A stretch of DNA of 64,000 nt from Vermamoeba vermiformis. Lineage: Eukaryota. Positions 5,065 to 27,065 of this stretch are shown here, in pieces (positions within the stretch are counted from its first letter, which is position 1; each line of letters starts with the position of its first letter). The stretch lies in the NCBI GenBank assembly GCA_045837725.1, contig JBEWZL010000294.1:124001-188000 (forward strand). Reading direction: 5' to 3'. The notes beneath the pieces were generated by a model. The model was not told where the DNA came from. It did not search any database and worked only from the letters and a program-made list of their open reading frames with translations. Both the position numbers and the translations under genes were made by a program.

Positions 5065-6153
5065 ATGGGTCTGCAAGTAGATTTACGACAATTGGACTTG
5101 ACTCTCCACATGCTGGAGGGCAAGTCCTTCTCCTTTGGAAAGGACAAACTAGAAGAGCTCTTCACAACTAAAAAACGAAAACTTCACGAGATACTGGAGG
5201 AAGATGAAGAATTGCAGCTGCCGAACAAAAAGCAAAAAGTTTTATTAGAAACAGTCGCCACTGCAACCGCCACTGCTGACACTCCACAAGATTATGTCGC
5301 AGTTCAAGTGCCGCAAGCTAAGCCTCAACTCGATCTTTCAGCAGATTTGACCTTGTCTTTGGTCTCTGCTGCTCGTCGAGGCGATGCCGCTCAAATTCAC
5401 GCACTTCTCGCACACGACAAGAAGCTCGCCAACGAGTCAGTGTGTGGCAACACTCCTCTCATGTACGCTGCTTTCTACGGCCACGATTCAGTCGTGTTGA
5501 CACTACTCAACCACGGCGCTGATCCCACGCGCACCAATCTCTCCTCGATGACTGCACTGCACTGGGCCACACTCGGACAACACCCTGACACGGTTGCTGC
5601 TCTCATCTCCGCTGGTGCTGAGCCTAATGCAGCCGATCGACGTGGTCAGACAGCCCTGCACTTGGCCGCTCGTCTCGGCAATGCCGCTCTCGTGCGCACA
5701 CTGCTCGCAAGCGGAGCAAATGTGTCGCTGAAGACTGCTGCTGAACTCGATGGCACCACTGTGCTACACGAGGCTATTCAATCTGGCTCAGTCGAAGTCG
5801 CACGCCTGTTAGTAGAACGTGGCCGCGCTAATGTAAATGCCAAGAACGACAAGGGCCGCACTCCTCTGCACCGCGCAGTGTGGCGCGCAGATGTGTCGCT
5901 GGCCAAGTACCTACTCGACGTTGGAGCACAAGTCGACGCGCTCGATGAGAACGAACGCACTCCGCTCCACTGGGCCGCTTTCTTCGGTGCCACACACGGT
6001 GATGTGATTACCTTGCTGTTGCGCCACGGAGCAGACATGACACGCCGCGACAAACTCAAATTGACAGCTGTGCAAATCTCGCGTGTCAAGAAATTTGACA
6101 ACGCCTTGAAGATTTTCGAAGAGTTCCGCGCGAAGAAAAATGAAAAGAAATAA
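5065..6153 (+). CDS. Ankyrin-repeat protein
   Basis: About 7 ankyrin repeats (GNTPLMYAA, TALHWA, GQTALHLAA, GRTPLHRAV, TPLHWAA) and basic NLS-like segments. An upstream exon cannot be excluded. Confidence 0.9.
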   Translation: MGLQVDLRQLDLTLHMLEGKSFSFGKDKLEELFTTKKRKLHEILEEDEELQLPNKKQKVLLETVATATATADTPQDYVAVQVPQAKPQLDLSADLTLSLVSAARRGDAAQIHALLAHDKKLANESVCGNTPLMYAAFYGHDSVVLTLLNHGADPTRTNLSSMTALHWATLGQHPDTVAALISAGAEPNAADRRGQTALHLAARLGNAALVRTLLASGANVSLKTAAELDGTTVLHEAIQSGSVEVARLLVERGRANVNAKNDKGRTPLHRAVWRADVSLAKYLLDVGAQVDALDENERTPLHWAAFFGATHGDVITLLLRHGADMTRRDKLKLTAVQISRVKKFDNALKIFEEFRAKKNEKK

Positions 6154-6215
6154 CGACCGGAACGTTGTATTGTAGCATTAGTTATGAAGATAAACCTTCT
6201 ATTTATTTCACACAA

Positions 6216-8002
6216 TTAGTGCAGTGTCCCGTACTGTGGCAGGTTCTGCAGTGCAATAGCCTCCTCTTCGTTATTGAGCTCTGGGTGGTCCGCTGCAGCA
6301 CGTCTTCGATCGACTTCGAATTTGACATGACGCACGAACATGCCGACCCAAGTGAGGTTCAAGGCAGATGTGACTGCCATCAGCAGAAAAGCGTATTCTT
6401 CCTTATACTTGTCGTATCTGTAATTTACATGGAAGCTGTCAAACGTACCAATCAGCACTGCCACGAGCGGCATTGGCACGACGATAGTGTACAACGCAAA
6501 GAGTGTCCATCGCACGGCTGGTTTCATCTTCCAGTACTCGCCTAGCTTTGTAATGTGGTGCGTGATGCTTGGTTTGAGTGCGACAACACTACCAATCGTG
6601 ATGATGGTGGTGAATGCCCAGGACACGAGTGACGTCTGCGACACGACATATGACGTGTTGTTTGTGTAGCGACTTTTGGTTGAATACGGATGCAACAACA
6701 TGGAGAACACGGGCTGATAGGTGACATTCGCGGTGTTGAACTCGTAGCACTCTGGCCATTTATCGTTATGGGATGGCTCACGGTACGTGTCGTTGATTCT
6801 CCTTGTTGTGAACTCTGTCGTCAGTTTGGCCTGCAACGACCGCTGAGTAGTGACAGCGGCTAAGAGGTCGAGTGGTGACGTTGAAATCATTTCGACAAAG
6901 TTGACGTACAAGTGAAGCACCGGAATGTCGATGTACACTCCTGACGCTTGGAATTCTTCTTGCATTGTGACATCGCTGAACACACCTGGTGGTGGATAAG
7001 ATTTGACTGGTGGATACACTGGCGTGAAAAACTCCGCACTGACCATGTCGCGTTCGAAATCATAGTGTCCCTTAATACGCGGTGCGCACACTGTAAGGGG
7101 TTGGAGGTAATATGCATTGTAGTGGTAAGTTTGAAACAGTTCTGCTGAAAACGTTTGTCTGGAGCCGTTCACTGAAGGGAGTTTACAATTCACGTTAAAT
7201 TCTTTGTTGGTGGAGAGCATCACCGATTGATCGGCACTGATGTTGTGTGGCAGAGTAAACACGACACCGTAATTTGGTTGCTTGAAGGGCAGTAAGCCCA
7301 AGAGCCTGTTCGACGAGTAGTTGACAGTGCCTGGCTCATCGTGCGTGATGACCAGTGTCGTCATGCTGATTACTACGACCACTGCAAATACAATGGCCGA
7401 TGCGAATCCTCCTGCCGCTCGTTTTCTGCTGTCTGCGCGTTGCTGTTTCTCGTTCAAAAGCACGGGCTCGCTCGATTTGTGCTCAAAATCATCGAAATTG
7501 AGGCGAACATCAAGTAGTCGAAGTACTTTAGGCACTTGAGGTATGGGCAACAACAGCAGGAACACCACGAGCTGCATGAACACGATCGTGGACAAGATTA
7601 TTATTGTGGCGATCAGTTGCAAGGAGTTTCTGGTGTCATCCACATTTTCAAAACCTAATGAAGTCATTAAGGCCTCGAAGTTAAAACTTTGACAAAGTGC
7701 ATCTGTGACATTTTTCGTGATCTGCATTTTGGAACGACATTTACCTGTAGCTATAACAGCGGGTTGACATGTGGTCAGCATTTTATAAACATTGAATTGG
7801 CTGAGCAGATTTTTCGTTTTTACAGCATTTGGACGGAGTTTTAGGAGTGGACGCAAGTTCTGTCCTGTTTGAGTGTTTGGACAATATTCAGTTCCAATTC
7901 AATCTTCTCAGTCGTTTATAATATTATATTACGAGTAATTGAATAACAATAAAAATATAACAACATCCAAATTATACTTCCTCGTTGGAAGCTATTTTTC
8001 AT
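6216..8002 (-). CDS. Multi-pass membrane protein of unknown function
   Basis: 546-aa ORF 6216-7856 with about 5 hydrophobic helices and a large N-glycosylation-site-rich loop. A possible first exon 8002-7933 (MKNSFQRGSIIWMLLYFY) joins in frame via a GT-AG intron 7932-7865. Start uncertain. Confidence 0.6.
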
Positions 8003-8167
8003 CGTTGCTCGTGTTATTGTACCATGACGTAATAATTCTCTAATATAATGCAATGCTGCGTTTATGTCCAGGAACGGTCTTGGAAGTTTCCACTGAATAG
8101 TTGCTTCTTGCAATTTTCTGCGGTGGTACACTAAATTCTATTTTTGCTCGAGCTAGCTTTAGTAAAC

Positions 8168-8761
8168 ATGAAGACCCTTCTCTACACCACCTTTTTCTTG
8201 TTTGCTGCGCACGCAGTGTATTCTGCGTACCTGTTAACGCCCATGTTCAACAATCTCTGCACGGATGTGGACTATCAACAAGGCGTTACGATAATTCCTT
8301 ATGCTTGCACTTATAGAAAAGGAAGAAATTCATATTCTCAAGGTTCATGCCAGGGAAATAAATTAGTCGAGCAACTATGCTCCGATCCAACTTTTTGCGA
8401 TAACGCCGGTACACTCTGCACTCCTGGTGGCAATATCTCGTTAGGATGCAGCAAGGATGGATACAAGAGCTGCATGGACGATTGGGTGCCTCTTCCTACT
8501 TTGCTGGGTACCGACCGCTATCTGACGATCTTGCACAGCGACATCAGCTACTGCCGCAATCCCATTGTTTACAACGTCTATCCTCTCTACAAGTGCTTGC
8601 AAACCGGCATCCCACTTTTTCCTTCAATGTATGTGGATTGTACCAACAACACTATCTCCCGCTTCACTGATGCAAATTGTGTCGAGTTGGGTGCCCAAGA
8701 ACAATTCGATATTACTCCGGATTGCTACGGAACGATCGATTTTCAGTGTACTAACCCTTAA
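8168..8761 (+). CDS. Secreted cysteine-rich protein, intronless
   Basis: Signal peptide MKTLLYTTFFLFAAHAVYS and about 14 Cys; no family recognised. Confidence 0.7.
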   Translation: MKTLLYTTFFLFAAHAVYSAYLLTPMFNNLCTDVDYQQGVTIIPYACTYRKGRNSYSQGSCQGNKLVEQLCSDPTFCDNAGTLCTPGGNISLGCSKDGYKSCMDDWVPLPTLLGTDRYLTILHSDISYCRNPIVYNVYPLYKCLQTGIPLFPSMYVDCTNNTISRFTDANCVELGAQEQFDITPDCYGTIDFQCTNP

Positions 8762-8949
8762 TTATAATTAAACATTACAAAGCGTTACCTATTTGCCCTT
8801 GCAACTCAATAGTTCAAAATATAACGAATTAGCGATAGAGTAAATAGGAATGTAAGTTATGTAAGAAGAAAGCGTAATAAATCATCACCAATCGAGTGTT
8901 TTGAGTTTTCCTGGGCGGTATTTTATTCCAGGAACTCTAGGTAAACCAT

Positions 8950-9683
8950 TTATTTCTCGCCTTGTTTCTTTCTTCTTCGATAATTCTCATCATATTCGCG
9001 TCTGCGTTGCTTCACATCCTCTCGCTGACGGTACTCCTGTTGGTATTCGCGTTGGCGTTGCTTTACATCCTCTCGCTGACGGTACTCCTGTTGGTATTCG
9101 CGTTGGCGTTGCTTTACATCCTCTCGCTGATAGTACCCACGCGGATCAAACAGTCCAGGAGTGACCAGATGAAGGGGAGGAGGTCGAATCTGAGAAAATT
9201 GGTTAATTCCCTCCTTGATCTTGGCCCTTCCAAAACGAGTTAGATCGTATTCAACTCCTGAGTATCTCCAGTGGTCTGAGAATGCGAAACAATTGGGCAA
9301 CGGAACCGATCCGTACTTGTGGTCACAGGTGCATTGGTGGGTATTTCCTAATAAAGAATGAATTCGTATTAATTTCCAGGAATTATAGGTAAAGAAACCT
9401 GTGTTTACTTACGTCCTGTTGTTGGATCGACAAGTCGTATTCTTGTTTGCTTGTCCCGAAGCATCATTTCTTTAAAGAGCCTGCATGCGTTTCTTTTGAG
9501 ATTAATGCGATGGGGTTCGAATATGATATGCCAAGGGTTGAGGCATTGCTTGTTGTGGCAGAGATGTGACGCATCCAACGCGCATCGGGGAACACCAGGG
9601 TAAAAGAGGTACTGGGCAGTGTCGATAGGGTTTTGTTGATATAAGTGAATATTTTGAAACAGTATCTTGCCAACGTGGGTCAT
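8950..9683 (-). CDS. His-Cys box (His-Me finger, I-PpoI-like) endonuclease with C-terminal tandem repeats
   Basis: SHLCHNKQCLNPWHIIFEPHRINLKRNAC matches I-PpoI motif spacing. Removing the GT-AG intron 9412-9348 joins ORF 9405-9749 to 8950-9300 in frame and adds CTCDH...C. 222 aa from ATG 9683; the frame stays open up to 9797. Confidence 0.8.
8993..9130 (-). repeat. 51-bp tandem repeat, about 2.7 copies (YRQREDVKQRQREYQQE)
   Basis: TATTCGCG recurs at 8993, 9044 and 9095; copies are nearly identical. Confidence 0.95.
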
Positions 9684-9777
9684 ATTGATGCGTACTGGCG
9701 GTAGGTATTTTTTTTGCGCAGGCAGTAACTTTTTCTCATCAAAAAGCAATAGAGTGCAACAACTTAATTTTATTGCA

Positions 9778-10752
9778 ATGGAAAGACGTAAAGCGAATCA
9801 ATTAAACATCGTTGATCGTGTTATTCCACCCAAATCTGCCGCTAAGACTGACGTACGTGTTACTCACATATTTTAAAAATTGATATTTATTTTGCTTTGG
9901 TTTTGACGTTCTGTTGTTCTGTTCAGAAGAACGAATTACATTAACGAAAATTAGCAAATAATAATTTATTTATTTTATTTTATTTACAGGTTAGTCTGAG
10001 TGCTTTCTCGTTTTTATTTTCAGAATTTGTACAGTATGCTCATAGAAAAGTAACGCATATTAAAGATCTGCAACGAAGGTAATTTCATAACAAATTACTA
10101 GCTGACGTCGCTGAGATTAATTATCCGATTAGACTTGCGGACGTCGGTTACAATGTAGGTCTTAGACTCGCTGAATTAGTGCCGTGGAAAGAAAAAGCAG
10201 TCAAACGTGAGACTCGATTGCTGCGGATCTTATACTTCATATCGAACACAACTTGGAAGTATTTGTTCGGCAAAGATGCCGTATTAGAACGTAGTACTGA
10301 GAAGGAGGACCAATGTATGTATCATATATTCGATAGATTCTGGTATTTACTAAGTTAAAATTGCTCGTGCAAATGTGACCAGATCCGGTACTAACTTATC
10401 CACGACACAGATATGATCACAGAGAACGAGCCACTCATGAACAAATATATATCTATCCCTAAAGACTTGACTGGTCTTAACTGCAGTGCATTCCTCGGAG
10501 GTCTTGTGGAAGGAATTTTGGATGCCGCTGAGTTCGTAAGTTGCTGCTTTTAATTCAAGATTACTTTAGTACCTAGCCTTATGAGACACATCATATATCA
10601 TCCAAGCGAGAGGTACTAATTATGAGTCATATTCACAGCCCGCTAAAGTGTCTACACACTCAGTGGAGATTGCCGGACAACGATTCCCCCGCACAGTGAT
10701 TTTGATTGAATTCACGCGCGAAGTGATTGAACGAGACTCGCGATTGTCTTAA
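9778..10752 (+). CDS. TRAPPC5: TRAPP complex subunit 5 (Trs31)
   Basis: Spliced product MERRK...IVDRV...VSLSAFSFLFSEFVQY...KRETRLL...LNCSAFLGGLVEGILDAAEFPAKV... Confidence 0.92.
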
Positions 10753-11000
10753 TAGACCTACTGTATTGTATATATATAAGCGGACTAAGTAAATGTTCCA
10801 CTCTGTTGTACAGTCATCTGCTCGTGGATCCGATCTGTTAACAACAAACGGTCGCTGAGTGTCCGAGTGCTAACGGTGCGAAGGCACTGCAACTCAATGA
10901 CACTAGATTTCGATAATTATAACAATCACGTAATACCTGTCTGGTCACGAGGAAAAAATTGTGTTCGGCCGCTGACGTCAGCTTGTTATCAGACTACGAG

Positions 11001-12253
11001 ATGGGCAGCAAGAGTGGCGAGTATAAGTCTCAAACTAAATATGCATTCTCCGTATCTGAGGAGAAGCCTAAAGAGCCTGAACCAGATCCAGAATTAATCG
11101 AAGATCCCCCAAAGAAATCAGAAAGCGACTTGAAGCCGAAAGTGTTTGGTAATTGGTCACAATAATTTATTGGTATTATATAAGTTGCTAATTGCAATGT
11201 CGCAGCGTTTTTTTCGGATCTAGCAACGAAAATTAAAACTACATCGGAAGAAATTAAGCAAGACTTGAAAAAACTCGGTGAAGAGCTTACTAAGAACAAT
11301 GATGGTCCTATAATCGAGAAAGGTAATTATTTTTATTTTCAAACAATTCAATAAAATTGTAATTATTTTCAGAGCAACCTCGCCCTAAACAACCTGAATT
11401 ACCTCCATGGGACGTATTAAATATTGCAGATAAAGAACTGTACGAGGAAATTAAAAGACAAATTCTGCTCATTCCTACGGTAAGTCACACAAGCCTTAAA
11501 CTAATTAATTATCCTAATAATCGCGTAGTCACGACGAAATTTGTTAAATGCACCACCAGAGACTGAAATAGATTTCAAATTTTCAATGGAAGAGTATCTA
11601 CCGATGGCAATGGCCACACTGAAGGAGGATCAGAATTTAAACACAGCGCGCTTTGTGCTCGTACCGAAGAGCATTTCAGAGCACGAATTTTGGCGCAATT
11701 ATTTTTACAGGATACACATCATCAAACAGGCGTTTGGATTGACTGGCACGAACAACGCTGGTCAGCAAGCCTCGAGTCCTGTTGCACCCGTGAAAAATAC
11801 AGATAATGTCGCAGTACCTGCCAGTCAAAACAACGACAATAACACGAGCGATAATGCCAACAAAAAGAGCGAAGAGAGTGCCAGCAACAGCAGTACACCC
11901 GCGCCGAGTCAACTGGAGAGCTCGAAGCGTAAGTCCGTTAATGTTTTTCTGAGCGGAATTTGACCGTGACATTAGCTGAGGAGGTGAAAACTACAAAGCC
12001 CGAAGATGACACGATTGAATTTGCGAGTGATTATTATGAGGGCGGTGAATGGGCCGGTGATTTGAAGGCTGAACTTACCAAATTAGGCATTGATGATGAC
12101 GAGATTGACATCGGCGATGCAGTCGGAGACACGCTTGAAGGTAGTAATGCAATAATCATTGTAAATTATTAACGTTGCTGATTATTGAATTTAGTAATTG
12201 ACCCCAGTGACTTGGAAGAGGAGCTGAGAAAACAAATCGAAGACATGGATTAG
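11001..12253 (+). CDS. BSD-domain protein (SYAP1/DOS2-like)
   Basis: EDQNLNTARFVLVPKSISEHEFWRNYFYRIHIIKQ is the BSD signature; acidic C-terminus. Confidence 0.82.
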
Positions 12254-12432
12254 AATCGGTTGTAGCTCTGCTTGTGTACAATGAAATAGTTTTCAAAATT
12301 TCAGTATTTTATTTACAAGCGCCTCGTCAGTGGCTAATTCAAGTCTTTCTATAATATAAGCAATATACAATCGACCCCTTACTGGTTGTAATGCTAGTAA
12401 TAACAGAGTTAGTCTCGAGTCCTTGGTTAGAA

Positions 12433-13970
12433 CTAATAACGCGGACTTACATCGTCATCGTGTTGGTTCTGAGGGTGATGGCCACCTTGCATGCCATGTT
12501 GTGAATGGGGATTGCCACCGTGATTGCCTTCAGGATGAGCACCTTCATTCAGCATCTGTTGCGCGTGCAGTGACTGCAAAATGGAGTGTGGTTGGCCTCC
12601 ACCAGGTCCTTTGAATGACCAGTTGGGAGGAACACCGTTAGGACCAGGAGTGAACGAGGGTCCTAAGTTGAATTGACCGTGCGGTGGTCCATAGTTGAAC
12701 ACAGGGGTGCGGAGGTAAGGAGGCAAATTGATGCCGAGTGACGAGCCCATTCCCAAGCCAGGCATACCTTGTCCTCCTTGATTCGGCATGCCTTGGCCTT
12801 GTTGTGCCATTTGAGCAGCAATTTGAGGATTCATTTGACCCTGTCCTTGGGGGTTCATCGGCTGTTGATTGGGATTTTGTTGACCACCAGGAGCTTGAGG
12901 AGGTTGTTGCATCATGTTAGGATTCAACATTTGATGATTAGCCAATGCTGCAATAGGATGCATGCCAAGAGGTCCACCCATGCCATAAGGAACATTGCCC
13001 ATAGGTACTTGCATGGGCTGTTGTGGTTGGGGATTGGATGGTGTGGGCATGTCATTCGTAGCTGCCGCAACCAATCCACGCAACTCCTGTTTGTTTTGTC
13101 CTCGTGTTACCTTCTGTGCAGTGTTAGACGACCAATCAGCGTAGTAAGGAGAATGAGGTTCCAATTTTACCTTCTTTTCTTCAGGTTCGGTAGTGAAATT
13201 AGCGGGTTGATCGGGAGGGACAGGCTCTTGACTGCCACTAGGCATGAATGAACCACTGCCCTCCAGCGAGCCTGAGGTGCTGAAATTGTGATTGGCACTC
13301 ACGCGGCTCGTAGACATAGAGATTGGTGGAGCACCGCCAGCACTCATGTCCGGAGCATTGAGACAAGCTTGAATTAAGTTCTTGCCCTCGGCCTTGGTGA
13401 TGAGTGGCTGCAGCTTGTTGGTCGCAAATGTGTAGACGTGACCTGTCTCGCTCGCCACGAGCAACAAAACTTGCGTGCCTGTAAGTGTCGCCAATTCGTA
13501 GGCCTAAATGATGCGTTAAACATTTGATGGATTATGAAAACGAGTAAAAGGAAGGAGAGGTGACTGCGGCAAATTATTTCCAAATATATTAGGAAAGTCA
13601 CGCAGATTAACAACCTAAAACGGCAAGTCCCTTTTTGAAAATTGAAGAAGTTGCAAGGGCCATCAAACGGCGTATTATGTACCTTTTTCATAATGCCAGA
13701 CTTTCGCTTGCTAAATGTAATGTGACGTCTGCTCTTGTCGTCGATGAACTCGATGTTGATCTTCCTTCTTCCTTTTCTTTCGCGTTTGCCACCATCTTTA
13801 TCTACTTCTGGGTGCTCTTGGGTTATTTCGTGCATAACAGGGCCATTTTCAGGAGTAGTTTGCTCGCCACTTTCATTGTTTGAATCAGGCGATGCAGGTC
13901 CTCGGAAGCTTAACCCTGACAAAGGGCCAGAATTTTGATTTGGTTGGCCTGAACTCTCAGGTTGATCCAT
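12433..13970 (-). CDS. SRF: SRF/MCM1-type MADS-box transcription factor
   Basis: GRRKINIEFIDDKSRRHITFSKRKSGIMKK|AYELATLTGTQVLLLVASETGHVYTFAT...LIQACLN; Q/P/G/M-rich C-terminus. Confidence 0.92.
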
Positions 13971-26098: not shown

Positions 26099-27065
26099 AT
26101 GTTGAAACTCAAGAGAACTTACGATGACATGGCCTTTGGTTCAAGCCCCTCACCTGCTTGCTCCCCGCACAAAATTACATTTTTGGACAATAACTCCGAG
26201 GGCTCTCCTTTCAAACGGGCTCGCACCAGCACTTATAATCCGAATCAAGGCTTCTTATCCACTTCTCCTCGTGAATCCAACTTCCCTACCACGAATTTTA
26301 ACATAGACAGTAAGCACTACTTTTTTTTATAATTATTTTGATTGAACATCACTATTTCAGCAAAATCCAGGATGGAGTTTTTTATTATTTTGAAATTTTA
26401 AATGAAATTCATTTTCTAAAACGCATTTTTATGACACAAATAAGCACATAATCATATGGTTAATATATTGCGAATTGGCTTATTCTTGGAAAGATTGGAT
26501 TGGTTATTCTCTTAATGATCTTAATTCTAATTCGTTATCTTCTGATATTTATCCCTTATTTACTTTCATCATCTCCTATATCCCCTTTATTGACAATATA
26601 ATTGTGACCAATAATTAATCATTTGACCGTTACGCAGATGTGGACGAGAAAAAATGGATCGAATGGTTGCCCGCCAACAGCCGTCGCAAGCTTCTGCATT
26701 ACGTCCAAAATACCTTGCAGAAGACCCAACAAGAGGAGAAGGCTAATATTGAAAACAATCCATTCCAACCTCACCTTTTGAACCCGCAAATCCAACCCAC
26801 CAAACCCGCTCAACCTAATCCATTCAACCAACCCTTGAACACTAACTTTGACAAGCCCATCAGCAAGACTGACAGAATTTTCTCGATTGAAGATGTGAAG
26901 CAGATCATTCAAAGTGCTATTGAAGAGAGAGAAGATGAAATCCGTAAAGAGTACGATCGCATCCTCGAAGAAACTCTTCAAGATCAGTTCAAAAAGTTCT
27001 CTCAATTCAGTCAAGACTATATTGACAGACAGCTCAAGGATAGCACTTACAACTACATGATTTAA
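26099..27065 (+). CDS. AKIRIN: Akirin
   Basis: N-terminal LKRTYD...SPFKRAR; C-terminal FSIEDVKQIIQSAIEEREDEIRKEYDRILEETLQDQFKKFSQFSQDYIDRQ...NYMI matches the Akirin coiled-coil end. Confidence 0.85.

What the first reader, a model, noticed from the sequence alone, without database searches (positions are those of the whole stretch)
8950..9797. Free-standing, spliced His-Cys box homing-endonuclease gene outside rDNA
Seen: SHLCHNKQCLNPWH-x8-NLKRNAC keeps the I-PpoI spacing of the catalytic His and Asn and three Zn-site-1 ligands. A 65-nt spliceosomal intron (9412-9348) restores the second Zn cluster (C...CTCDH...C), followed by near-perfect 17-aa charged repeats. Established: His-Cys box nucleases are classically encoded in nuclear rDNA group I introns of amoebae and fungi, and His-Me nucleases ride in KolobokP transposons. 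Here I see no rRNA, ribozyme core, TIR or adjacent transposase. Inference: a domesticated or independently mobile nuclease, possibly still active.
Basis: partly seen in the sequence, partly recalled or inferred. Interest (0 to 1): 0.7.

Follow-up and report, generated by a model that had tools for sequence, protein, structure and literature searches.

The report
Chromosomal spliced I-PpoI-like nuclease gene copy
This is a real two-exon gene for a DNA-cutting enzyme of the type normally hidden inside ribosomal-RNA introns, but it belongs to a scattered and little-studied chromosomal gene family, and this copy seems to lack the family's usual front end.

Summary
On the minus strand, exon 1 (9683..9413), a 65-nt GT..AG intron (9412..9348) and exon 2 (9347..8950) encode 222 aa. 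Exon 1 matches Pfam PF05551 (48.6 bits, cut-off 27). It aligns without gaps to I-PpoI, placing H40, N61 and the ligands C42, C47, H52 and C67 on H98, N119, C100, C105, H110 and C125. Exon 2 supplies C96, H100 and C110, followed by 2.7 copies of a 51-nt repeat. The intron has no RNA support. However, a relative 66% identical in protein has an intron at the same place and in the same phase. The window holds no Rfam family, terminal inverted repeats or transposase, and the neighbours are housekeeping genes.

The gene is not a lone oddity. It belongs to a dispersed family of 292 representative clusters. A relative's copies lie at unrelated loci, and one of them is decayed. The family's N-terminal cysteine lies here in an upstream open frame that has no start codon and overlaps the TRAPPC5-like gene. 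No transcript of this copy was seen. A contig 96% identical to it, with a different 5' part, was found in an RNA-type run.

Best reading: a copy of a known nuclease family that looks intact but is probably 5'-truncated. Nuclease activity and mobility are unproven.

The parts
9413..9683 (-). Exon 1 (90 codons plus 1 nt) from the first in-frame ATG. It holds the beta-beta-alpha-metal (His-Me) core.
   Evidence: Translation. PF05551 at 48.6 bits, E 1.2e-12. Ungapped alignment to I-PpoI 90-125. 63-66% identical relatives P0007 and P0008.
9483..9569 (-). Catalytic and zinc motif S39-C67: SHLCHNKQCLNPWH-x8-NLKRNAC. H40 is the general base, N61 the metal ligand, C42/C47/H52 belong to Zn site 1 and C67 is the first ligand of Zn site 2.
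   Evidence: Alignment to I-PpoI H98, C100, C105, H110, N119 and C125. These columns are invariant, or in the case of C67 nearly invariant, across 102 aligned family members.
9348..9412 (-). 65-nt spliceosomal-type intron, GTAAGT...TTATTAG, phase 1.
   Evidence: Sequence. Reading through it hits a stop after 2 codons. L002 has a 68-nt phase-1 GT..AG intron at the same place, and donor and acceptor align in the window, L002 and L003. No RNA junction was seen.
8950..9347 (-). Exon 2 with the TAA stop. It carries the rest of Zn site 2, a conserved middle part and a charged repeat tail.
   Evidence: Translation. Homologues are P0003 (38% identity over 97% of the query) and L002 exon C (E 1.6e-7).
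9289..9333 (-). Second zinc cluster C96-x-C98-x-H100-x9-C110.
   Evidence: Cys and His positions. They match the family's downstream C, H and C columns (92 of 96, 87 of 90 and 95 of 95 occupied rows) and L002's HRCIRDH...PDC. C98 is not conserved.
8993..9130 (-). Tandem repeat of 51 nt (17 aa, core ...YRQREDVKQRQREYQQE...), 2.7 copies.
   Evidence: TRF score 255, 96% matches; the repeat finder family D1. Similar REDVK-type repeats occur in P0003 and in the otherwise unrelated P0004, P0005 and P0006. No Pfam family matches.
9684..9797 (-). In-frame open frame upstream of the ATG (38 codons, no ATG). It contains Cys codons at 9761-9756 that align with the family's N-terminal Cys.
   Evidence: ORF list. 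Column 298 of alignment A3 has Cys in 87 of 87 occupied rows, and the window's C13 aligns there. Relatives extend N-terminally through this region. The frame is closed by TGA at 9800-9798.
9770..9852 (+). Exon 1 of the divergent neighbour (TRAPP-component gene, TRAPPC5-like by my reading of its N-terminus). Its ATG is at 9778. It overlaps the upstream frame of the nuclease gene in antisense.
   Evidence: Spliced contigs in runs X1 and X2 match with 0 differences and show joints 9852|9990, 10076|10131 and 10314|10411, all GT..AG. PF04051 on the 10083-10358 ORF.

Best explanation

Shown: the domain, all invariant catalytic and zinc-binding residues downstream of the ATG, an intron whose position and phase are shared with a 66%-identical relative, and a setting among housekeeping genes with no rDNA, ribozyme or transposon.

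Inferred mechanism: a beta-beta-alpha-metal nuclease. H40 activates water, N61 holds the single divalent metal, and two structural zinc sites (C42/C47/H52 plus an N-terminal Cys; C67/C96/H100/C110) hold the fold, as in I-PpoI. The charged helical 17-aa repeat tail probably serves oligomerisation, DNA contact or nuclear import.

Inferred about this copy: it is probably 5'-truncated. The part that relatives encode upstream, including the fourth ligand of zinc site 1, survives only as an open frame with no start codon that runs into the TRAPPC5-like gene. Any product would therefore start at Met 9683 and lack that ligand.

The family as a whole behaves like a birth-and-death or selfish nuclease family, with non-syntenic copies and one decayed copy in a relative.
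For: - Domain: PF05551 at 48.6 bits against a cut-off of 27. Ungapped match to I-PpoI 90-125. A profile of 20 family members hits only I-PpoI among 177,635 PDB sequences, E 1.1e-9.
- Conserved residues: H, C, C, H, N and R are invariant in 102 aligned members, and the window has all six.
- Intron: position and phase are conserved, and the flanking TAG|GAAATA and the donor align in the window, L002 and L003.
- Exon 2 has homologues, P0003 and L002 exon C.
- Family size and spread: 292 representative clusters at E<=1e-3. 62 of the 64 best carry PF05551 at E<=1e-4.
- Dispersal: L002 lies between SMC and aminotransferase genes, and L003 lies beside U-box and SAM genes. Their similarity is confined to about 1.5 kb of gene body.
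- Decay: L003 has a stop in place of the invariant Cys, Ile in place of the invariant Arg, a frame break in exon C and a roughly 520-nt deletion.
- 5' problem: there is no ATG in the 38 upstream codons. The family Cys aligns to that frame. TRAPP exon 1 at 9770-9852 is confirmed by spliced contigs. No L002-like N-terminal exon exists anywhere in the window.
- A second copy: a 728-nt contig in run X1 is 96% identical to 9443-9697 and then continues with 469 nt unlike the window. Its first 30 of those letters keep the frame open and are absent from the window.
Against: - Nothing downstream of the ATG is broken. Both exons are open, the splice sites are canonical and the repeats are in frame, so the copy may be fully functional from Met 9683 or from an undetected 5' exon.
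- The upstream frame staying open for 38 codons has roughly a 0.16 chance under random sequence (my estimate). That mildly suggests it is still coding.
- The alignment of the upstream Cys rests on MAFFT and on spacing, not on strong similarity.
- The 96% contig could be a divergent allele and not a paralogue, and run X1 is only guessed to be RNA.
- Failing to see a transcript in contigs is not evidence that there is none.
- The six listed differences from that contig split 3 synonymous to 3 non-synonymous by my hand count, too few to show constraint.
Confidence: 0.6

Rival explanations
1. A fully functional host ('domesticated') nuclease gene. It would be translated from Met 9683, or from an unrecognised 5' exon or non-AUG start, and used by the cell for DNA repair, recombination or defence.
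For: All invariant catalytic and zinc residues downstream of the ATG are intact. The intron sites are intact and conserved. The upstream frame is open for 38 codons and carries the aligned Cys. The gene sits in a compact, gene-dense housekeeping region. C34 in PRCALD is shared with the closest relatives and might replace the missing ligand; that last point is my inference.
Against: The N-terminal frame has no start codon, and I found no plausible upstream coding exon between 9798 and 9990 on reading the sequence. The frame overlaps the TRAPPC5-like exon 1 and 5' UTR. No transcript of this copy appears in two RNA-type contig sets that do hold the neighbour. Relatives are non-syntenic and one is decayed, which is unlike a conserved host gene.
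Confidence: 0.22
2. An independently mobile, free-standing homing endonuclease gene. The gene body alone would be the mobile unit, spreading into intergenic sites next to conserved genes by cutting empty alleles and being copied in during repair.
For: The nuclease is of the His-Cys box homing type. Copies lie at unrelated intergenic places next to housekeeping genes in the window and in L002 and L003. Similarity between L002 and L003 stops exactly at the stop codon and about 130 nt before the first ORF, with no terminal repeats. A decayed copy fits the gain-decay-loss cycle of homing genes. A near-identical (96%) second copy exists in the same organism's RNA-type data.
Against: No target site, empty allele or cleavage is known. 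A conserved spliceosomal intron and 66-80% diverged copies point to old vertical paralogy and not recent homing. Ordinary segmental or retro-less duplication explains dispersal equally well. This copy seems truncated.
Confidence: 0.13
3. A remnant of a known carrier, either an rDNA group I intron fragment or a KolobokP-type transposon, transferred or degraded in place.
For: These are the two published homes of I-PpoI-like nucleases (PMC9587614 passages read; PMC9548176 abstract and section 6 read).
Against: No Rfam family reaches its gathering score in 64 kb, so no rRNA or group I intron is detected. No DDD/E transposase or other transposase domain appears in 22 ORFs scanned. There are no long terminal direct repeats or TIRs around the gene. 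The gene fills almost the whole interval between two unrelated genes.
Confidence: 0.03

Closest known systems
I-PpoI (Physarum polycephalum rDNA group I intron His-Cys box homing endonuclease; PDB 1a73, 1a74, 1cz0)
   Same: It has the same SHLCHN-C-NP-H...N..RN.C core with identical spacing of the catalytic His and Asn and of four zinc ligands. It is the only solved protein hit by the family profile and the best, though weak, structural match.
   Different: The window's gene is not in an intron or in rDNA. It is interrupted by a spliceosomal intron between the first and second ligand of zinc site 2. About 28 residues separate C67 from the next Cys, against 6 in I-PpoI (spacing C125-C132 as cited in PMC9587614 and from my own knowledge). 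It has a C-terminal charged repeat tail. Its N-terminal part is absent from the ATG-defined product.
[not shown]
   Same: These are His-Cys box nuclease genes expressed as spliced pol II-type mRNAs with small (47-51 nt) spliceosomal introns.
   Different: [quoted passage not shown] Here the intron is downstream of the catalytic core and the gene is chromosomal between protein-coding genes.
KolobokP transposon-encoded His-Me finger nucleases (Kojima and Bao 2022, PMC9587614)
   Same: They are I-PpoI-like nucleases outside rDNA introns in eukaryotic chromosomes, multi-copy, with the eight His/Cys pattern.
   Different: KolobokP nucleases lie next to a DDD/E transposase between long terminal direct repeats and were reported from 7 animal phyla. 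None of these features is present here. I could not run a direct phylogeny against them.
Uncharacterised free-standing PF05551 'hypothetical proteins' in public genomes and metagenomes (for example P0007/L002, P0008, P0011-P0023)
   Same: They share the subfamily: 63-66% identity for the closest, the same N-terminal ...SHV.KL... segment, the same intron place in L002, and the same exon-2 motif.
   Different: Relatives have a longer N-terminus with a CW motif and, in L002, a Ser-rich first exon. L002 lacks the 17-aa repeat array.
SMAD MH1 and NFI DNA-binding domains (inactive His-Me finger derivatives)
   Same: They share the distant fold class and appear as weak sequence and structure matches.
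   Different: Those have lost the catalytic residues, according to PMC3384342 passages read. The window's protein keeps them, so a purely DNA-binding role is less likely.

Membership tests
Pfam PF05551 (zf-His_Me_endon) | Score at or above the curated gathering cut-off (27 bits) | tested here: met
   48.6 bits, E 1.2e-12, residues 35-76 on profile positions 64-103 of 131. Only the central third of the profile is covered.
His-Cys box homing endonucleases (I-PpoI group) | Catalytic His and metal-binding Asn with I-PpoI spacing in a beta-beta-alpha-metal core | tested here: met
   H40 and N61 align ungapped to H98 and N119. Both are invariant in 102 family members. The AF2 model shows strand 74-78, strand 91-95 and helix 96-118 of the 130-aa frame.
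His-Cys box homing endonucleases (I-PpoI group) | Eight conserved His/Cys forming two zinc sites | tested here: inconclusive
   Seven are present in the ATG-defined product: C42, C47, H52, C67, C96, H100 and C110. The eighth, the N-terminal Cys equivalent to I-PpoI C41, aligns only to the upstream frame that has no start codon.
His-Cys box homing endonucleases (I-PpoI group) | Encoded inside a nuclear rDNA group I intron | tested here: not met
   No Rfam family reaches its gathering score in the 64-kb window. The neighbours are TRAPP, BSD, SRF-TF, ankyrin and other protein-coding genes.
His-Cys box homing endonucleases (I-PpoI group) | Site-specific double-strand cleavage of an empty target site (homing) | not testable with these tools
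   This needs recombinant protein and an empty-site substrate, or population data.
KolobokP transposon nucleases | Adjacent DDD/E transposase | tested here: not met
   No transposase family appears in 22 window ORFs scanned, including both flanking genes. The 560-aa ORF at 6216-7898 reads as a multi-pass membrane protein (my reading).
KolobokP transposon nucleases | Long terminal direct repeats (about 450 or 660 bp) with short TIRs | tested here: not met
   The only direct repeats within 6000-13000 are the internal 51-nt repeats and pairs of 36 nt or less. There are no terminal inverted repeats.
HNH_3 / I-HmuI-type homing endonucleases (PF13392) | PF13392 match | tested here: not met
   No PF13392 hit for exon 1 even at E up to 10, although 19 of the 64 best database relatives do carry it. 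I-HmuI is not hit by the family profile.

The most novel reading that the evidence does not exclude
The family would be the first example of free-standing homing endonuclease genes living in ordinary nuclear chromosomes of a eukaryote. In this reading, intron-bearing I-PpoI-like genes copy themselves as bare gene bodies into intergenic sites next to conserved genes and then decay. The window's copy, wedged against the TRAPPC5-like promoter, would be a recent arrival.
Probability: 0.12. Interest if true: 0.7.

Novelty: new variant of a known kind. Interest (0 to 1): 0.4.

Why it matters
His-Cys box nucleases are textbook residents of nucleolar group I introns. The only other published home I found is the KolobokP transposon. 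This locus and its relatives show the same catalytic module as ordinary spliced chromosomal genes, in several dispersed copies that arise and decay. If some copies are active, they are either a cellular use of a homing nuclease or a new way for such genes to spread in nuclei. They would also be a source of compact, possibly sequence-specific nucleases. The point is modest: databases already hold hundreds of such unnamed proteins, and this particular copy may be crippled.

Tried and rejected
- Whole-genome copy census: no genome is held for this window.
- Earlier scan notes: none for this genome or sequence, and the word searches returned only unrelated phage findings.
- RNA support for the junction 9413|9347: raw RNA runs X21 and X23 gave 12 and 3 reads, all on the TRAPP gene at 95-99% likeness, and none on the nuclease gene. 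Contig runs X1 and X2 hold no contig of this copy between 8899 and 9442. Coverage is too thin for a verdict.
- Word-index homologue search with the 130-aa frame found one candidate only. The profile version gave 23 proteins, almost all unnamed.
- ESM Atlas on exon 2: best score 0.80, with recognition below the useful range. I treat it as no lead.
A smaller alignment found only 3 weak viral loci (43-44% identity over 25-33 residues), which I did not pursue.
- Upstream exon hunt: tblastn with L002's N-terminal exon found nothing in the window (best E 0.82). The paralogue's 30 loose letters are absent from the window. By eye I found no ATG-plus-donor combination on the minus strand between 9798 and 9990.
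- The ATG at 9809-9807 followed by TGA at 9800-9798 is antisense to TRAPPC5-like codons. I regard it as coincidental.
- The repeated motif near 8000, 9807 and 11836 lies inside the TRAPP coding exon at 9807 and is probably chance.
- Two ORFs with identical coordinates 26619..27065 on both strands are not a palindrome.
- Pfam on the repeat-bearing proteins P0003-P0006 gave nothing significant.

Full report
**What is there.** Two adjoining stop-to-stop frames lie on the minus strand, 9797..9405 and 9408..8950.
- From the first ATG (9683), exon 1 runs to 9413.
- A 65-nt GTAAGT...TTATTAG intron occupies 9412..9348.
- Exon 2 runs from 9347 to the TAA at 8952..8950.
- The spliced frame is 669 nt, 222 aa. 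Without splicing the frame stops two codons into the intron.

**The domain is real.**
- phmmer against all PDB sequences aligns residues 32-67 without a gap to I-PpoI 90-125. H40, C42, C47, H52, N61 and C67 therefore fall on H98, C100, C105, H110, N119 and C125.
- I built a 102-row alignment from the window frame plus 101 of the 150 listed database relatives. I left out 49 by hand, mostly long or multi-domain proteins and the truncated P0027. In it, H, C, C, H, N and R of this core are invariant, and S, H, E and C67 are nearly so. The window has all of them.
- A profile of 20 family members hits only I-PpoI chains in the PDB sequence set (E 1.1e-9) and does not hit I-HmuI.
- Exon 1 has no PF13392 (HNH_3) match even at E up to 10.

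**Exon 2 and the intron.**
- Exon 2 starts ...NTHQCTCDHKYGSVPLPNC. This supplies the remaining ligands of the second zinc site (C96, H100, C110).
- The linker between C67 and C96 is long (28 residues). P0016 and P0022 show a similar, shorter insertion.
- No RNA read or contig crosses the junction, so splicing is not shown directly.
- The comparative evidence is good. A metagenome relative, L002 (66% identical in exon 1), has a 68-nt GT..AG intron at the same place and in the same phase 1. It is followed by NIHRCIRDH...LPDC.
- In a three-way DNA alignment the donor and the acceptor context TAG|GAAATA line up, while the intron interior differs.
- A Logan-derived protein, P0003, matches 97% of exon 2 at 38% identity, including REDVK-type repeats.

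**The repeat tail.** Tandem Repeats Finder reports a 51-nt unit, 2.7 copies, 96% matches, at 8993-9130. It encodes a strongly charged 17-aa unit. Similar units occur in P0003 and in three otherwise unrelated proteins, one of which looks like a zinc ribbon. No Pfam family covers it. Its role (coiled-coil pairing, DNA contact or nuclear import) is my inference only.

**Surroundings.**
- The window is ordinary eukaryotic chromosome. It holds lectin-like, ankyrin, TRAPP, BSD, SRF-type, glycosyltransferase, TRAPPC10, Dopey, Hid1/Dymeclin and adaptin genes.
- There is no Rfam family and no tRNA in 64 kb, no transposase domain and no terminal repeats around the gene.
- Downstream, 190 nt away and convergent, is a Cys-rich ORF with a signal-peptide-like start (my reading).
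- Upstream, and divergent, is a TRAPP-component gene. Its exon 1 (9770-9852, ATG at 9778) and three GT..AG junctions are confirmed by spliced contigs with 0 differences in runs X1 and X2.

**The 5' end is the weak point.**
- In relatives the residues matching MTHV... are internal. Upstream they carry 30-50 more residues with a CW motif. In L002 there is also a further Ser-rich exon, joined by another phase-1 intron.
- In the 102-row alignment an N-terminal Cys is present in all 87 rows that have a residue in that column. By position it is the counterpart of I-PpoI C41, the fourth ligand of zinc site 1 (ligand identity as cited in PMC9587614 and from my own knowledge).
- The window's counterpart lies at 9761-9759, in the frame upstream of the ATG. 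That frame is open for 38 codons but has no ATG and is closed by TGA at 9800-9798.
- It overlaps, in antisense, the first codons and 5' UTR of the TRAPP gene.
- tblastn with L002's first exon finds nothing in the window. I saw no usable ATG-plus-donor on the minus strand up to 9990.
- Hence the copy either starts at Met 9683 and lacks one zinc ligand, or it has lost its front end.

**A second copy.**
- Run X1 holds a 728-nt contig that is 96% identical to 9443-9697 (10 differences). It then continues for 469 nt that do not lie on 7900-11200.
- The first 30 of those letters keep the reading frame open, by my hand reading, and occur nowhere in the window.
- The TRAPP contigs from the same run are identical to the window. 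I therefore read the 728-nt contig as a paralogue, or a strongly divergent allele, with the longer 5' part.
- X1 and X2 contain spliced sequence, so they are at least partly RNA. The contig is therefore probably a transcript. It stops 30 nt short of the donor, so it says nothing about splicing.
- Of the six differences listed, three are synonymous and three are not (my count), which is too few to judge.

**The family.**
- A full HMMER scan of 1.84 billion representatives with exon 1 gives 292 clusters at E<=1e-3 and 7 at E<=1e-10. The best are 66% and 63% identical.
- Of the 64 best, 62 carry PF05551 at E<=1e-4, 19 carry HNH_3, and several have two to five tandem nuclease domains.
- Almost none has a name. 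One JGI entry is called by the Pfam title.
- In one metagenome, L002 and L003 lie at unrelated places, between SMC and aminotransferase genes and beside U-box and SAM genes.
- Their similarity (80-88% in DNA) is limited to about 1.5 kb of gene body and ends at the stop codon.
- L003 is decayed. It has a stop where the invariant Cys should be, Ile for the invariant Arg, a frame break in exon C and a roughly 520-nt deletion.
- Only three weak matches were found in IMG/VR viral contigs.

**Literature.**
- Jablonska et al. 2017 (PMC5714182, passages read) list the I-PpoI group as 62 eukaryotic (fungal) sequences, and place PF05551 in both the I-HmuI and I-PpoI groups.
- Kojima and Bao 2022 (PMC9587614, passages read) describe I-PpoI-like nucleases in KolobokP transposons.
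- Lian et al. 2022 (PMC9548176, abstract and section 6 read) show spliceosomal introns in rDNA-intron His-Cys box genes.
- A Naegleria paper notes PF05551 ORFs on rDNA plasmids (PMC12482156, one passage read).
- My searches for 'zf-His_Me_endon', 'PF05551', 'I-PpoI-like' and 'His-Cys box' with 'free-standing' found no paper on chromosomal, spliced, free-standing members. This covers only the held library.

**Verdict.** However, the gene is one copy of a dispersed, already catalogued and unstudied family, and this copy probably lacks its N-terminal part. Nuclease chemistry is well supported by residues. Activity, expression and mobility are open.

Noticed in passing
window 9770-10535 (+): The divergent neighbour is a TRAPP-component gene (PF04051; its N-terminus looks TRAPPC5/Trs31-like to me). 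Four exons (9770-9852, 9990-10076, 10131-10314, 10411-10535) are confirmed by spliced contigs in two runs. Its ATG is only 95 nt from the nuclease gene's ATG.
   Followed up: partly
window 8000-8020, 9807-9825 (+) and 11836-11856 (-): A roughly 20-nt motif, CATCGTTG[C/A]TCGTGTTATT, recurs three times within 4 kb. The copy at 9807 lies inside the TRAPP coding exon (codons N-I-V-D-R-V-I). It is probably chance.
   Followed up: partly
L003 5001-5600: A relative's paralogue is a clear pseudogene. It has a stop in place of the invariant Cys of SHLCHN, Ile for the invariant Arg, a frame break in the last exon and a roughly 520-nt deletion of the first exon.
   Followed up: yes
P0004, P0005, P0006 (proteins): REDVK/RDDIK-type charged repeats like the window's C-terminal tail occur in otherwise unrelated proteins. 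One has a C-x2-C...C-x2-C zinc-ribbon-like motif and a composition that looks bacterial. No family is known for the repeat.
   Followed up: partly
window 8135-8761 (+): This 208-aa frame has a signal-peptide-like start and many cysteines and matches no Pfam family. It looks like a secreted Cys-rich protein gene convergent with the nuclease gene.
   Followed up: no
window 6216-7898 (-): This 560-aa open frame has no Pfam match and several hydrophobic stretches. It looks like an orphan membrane protein.
   Followed up: no
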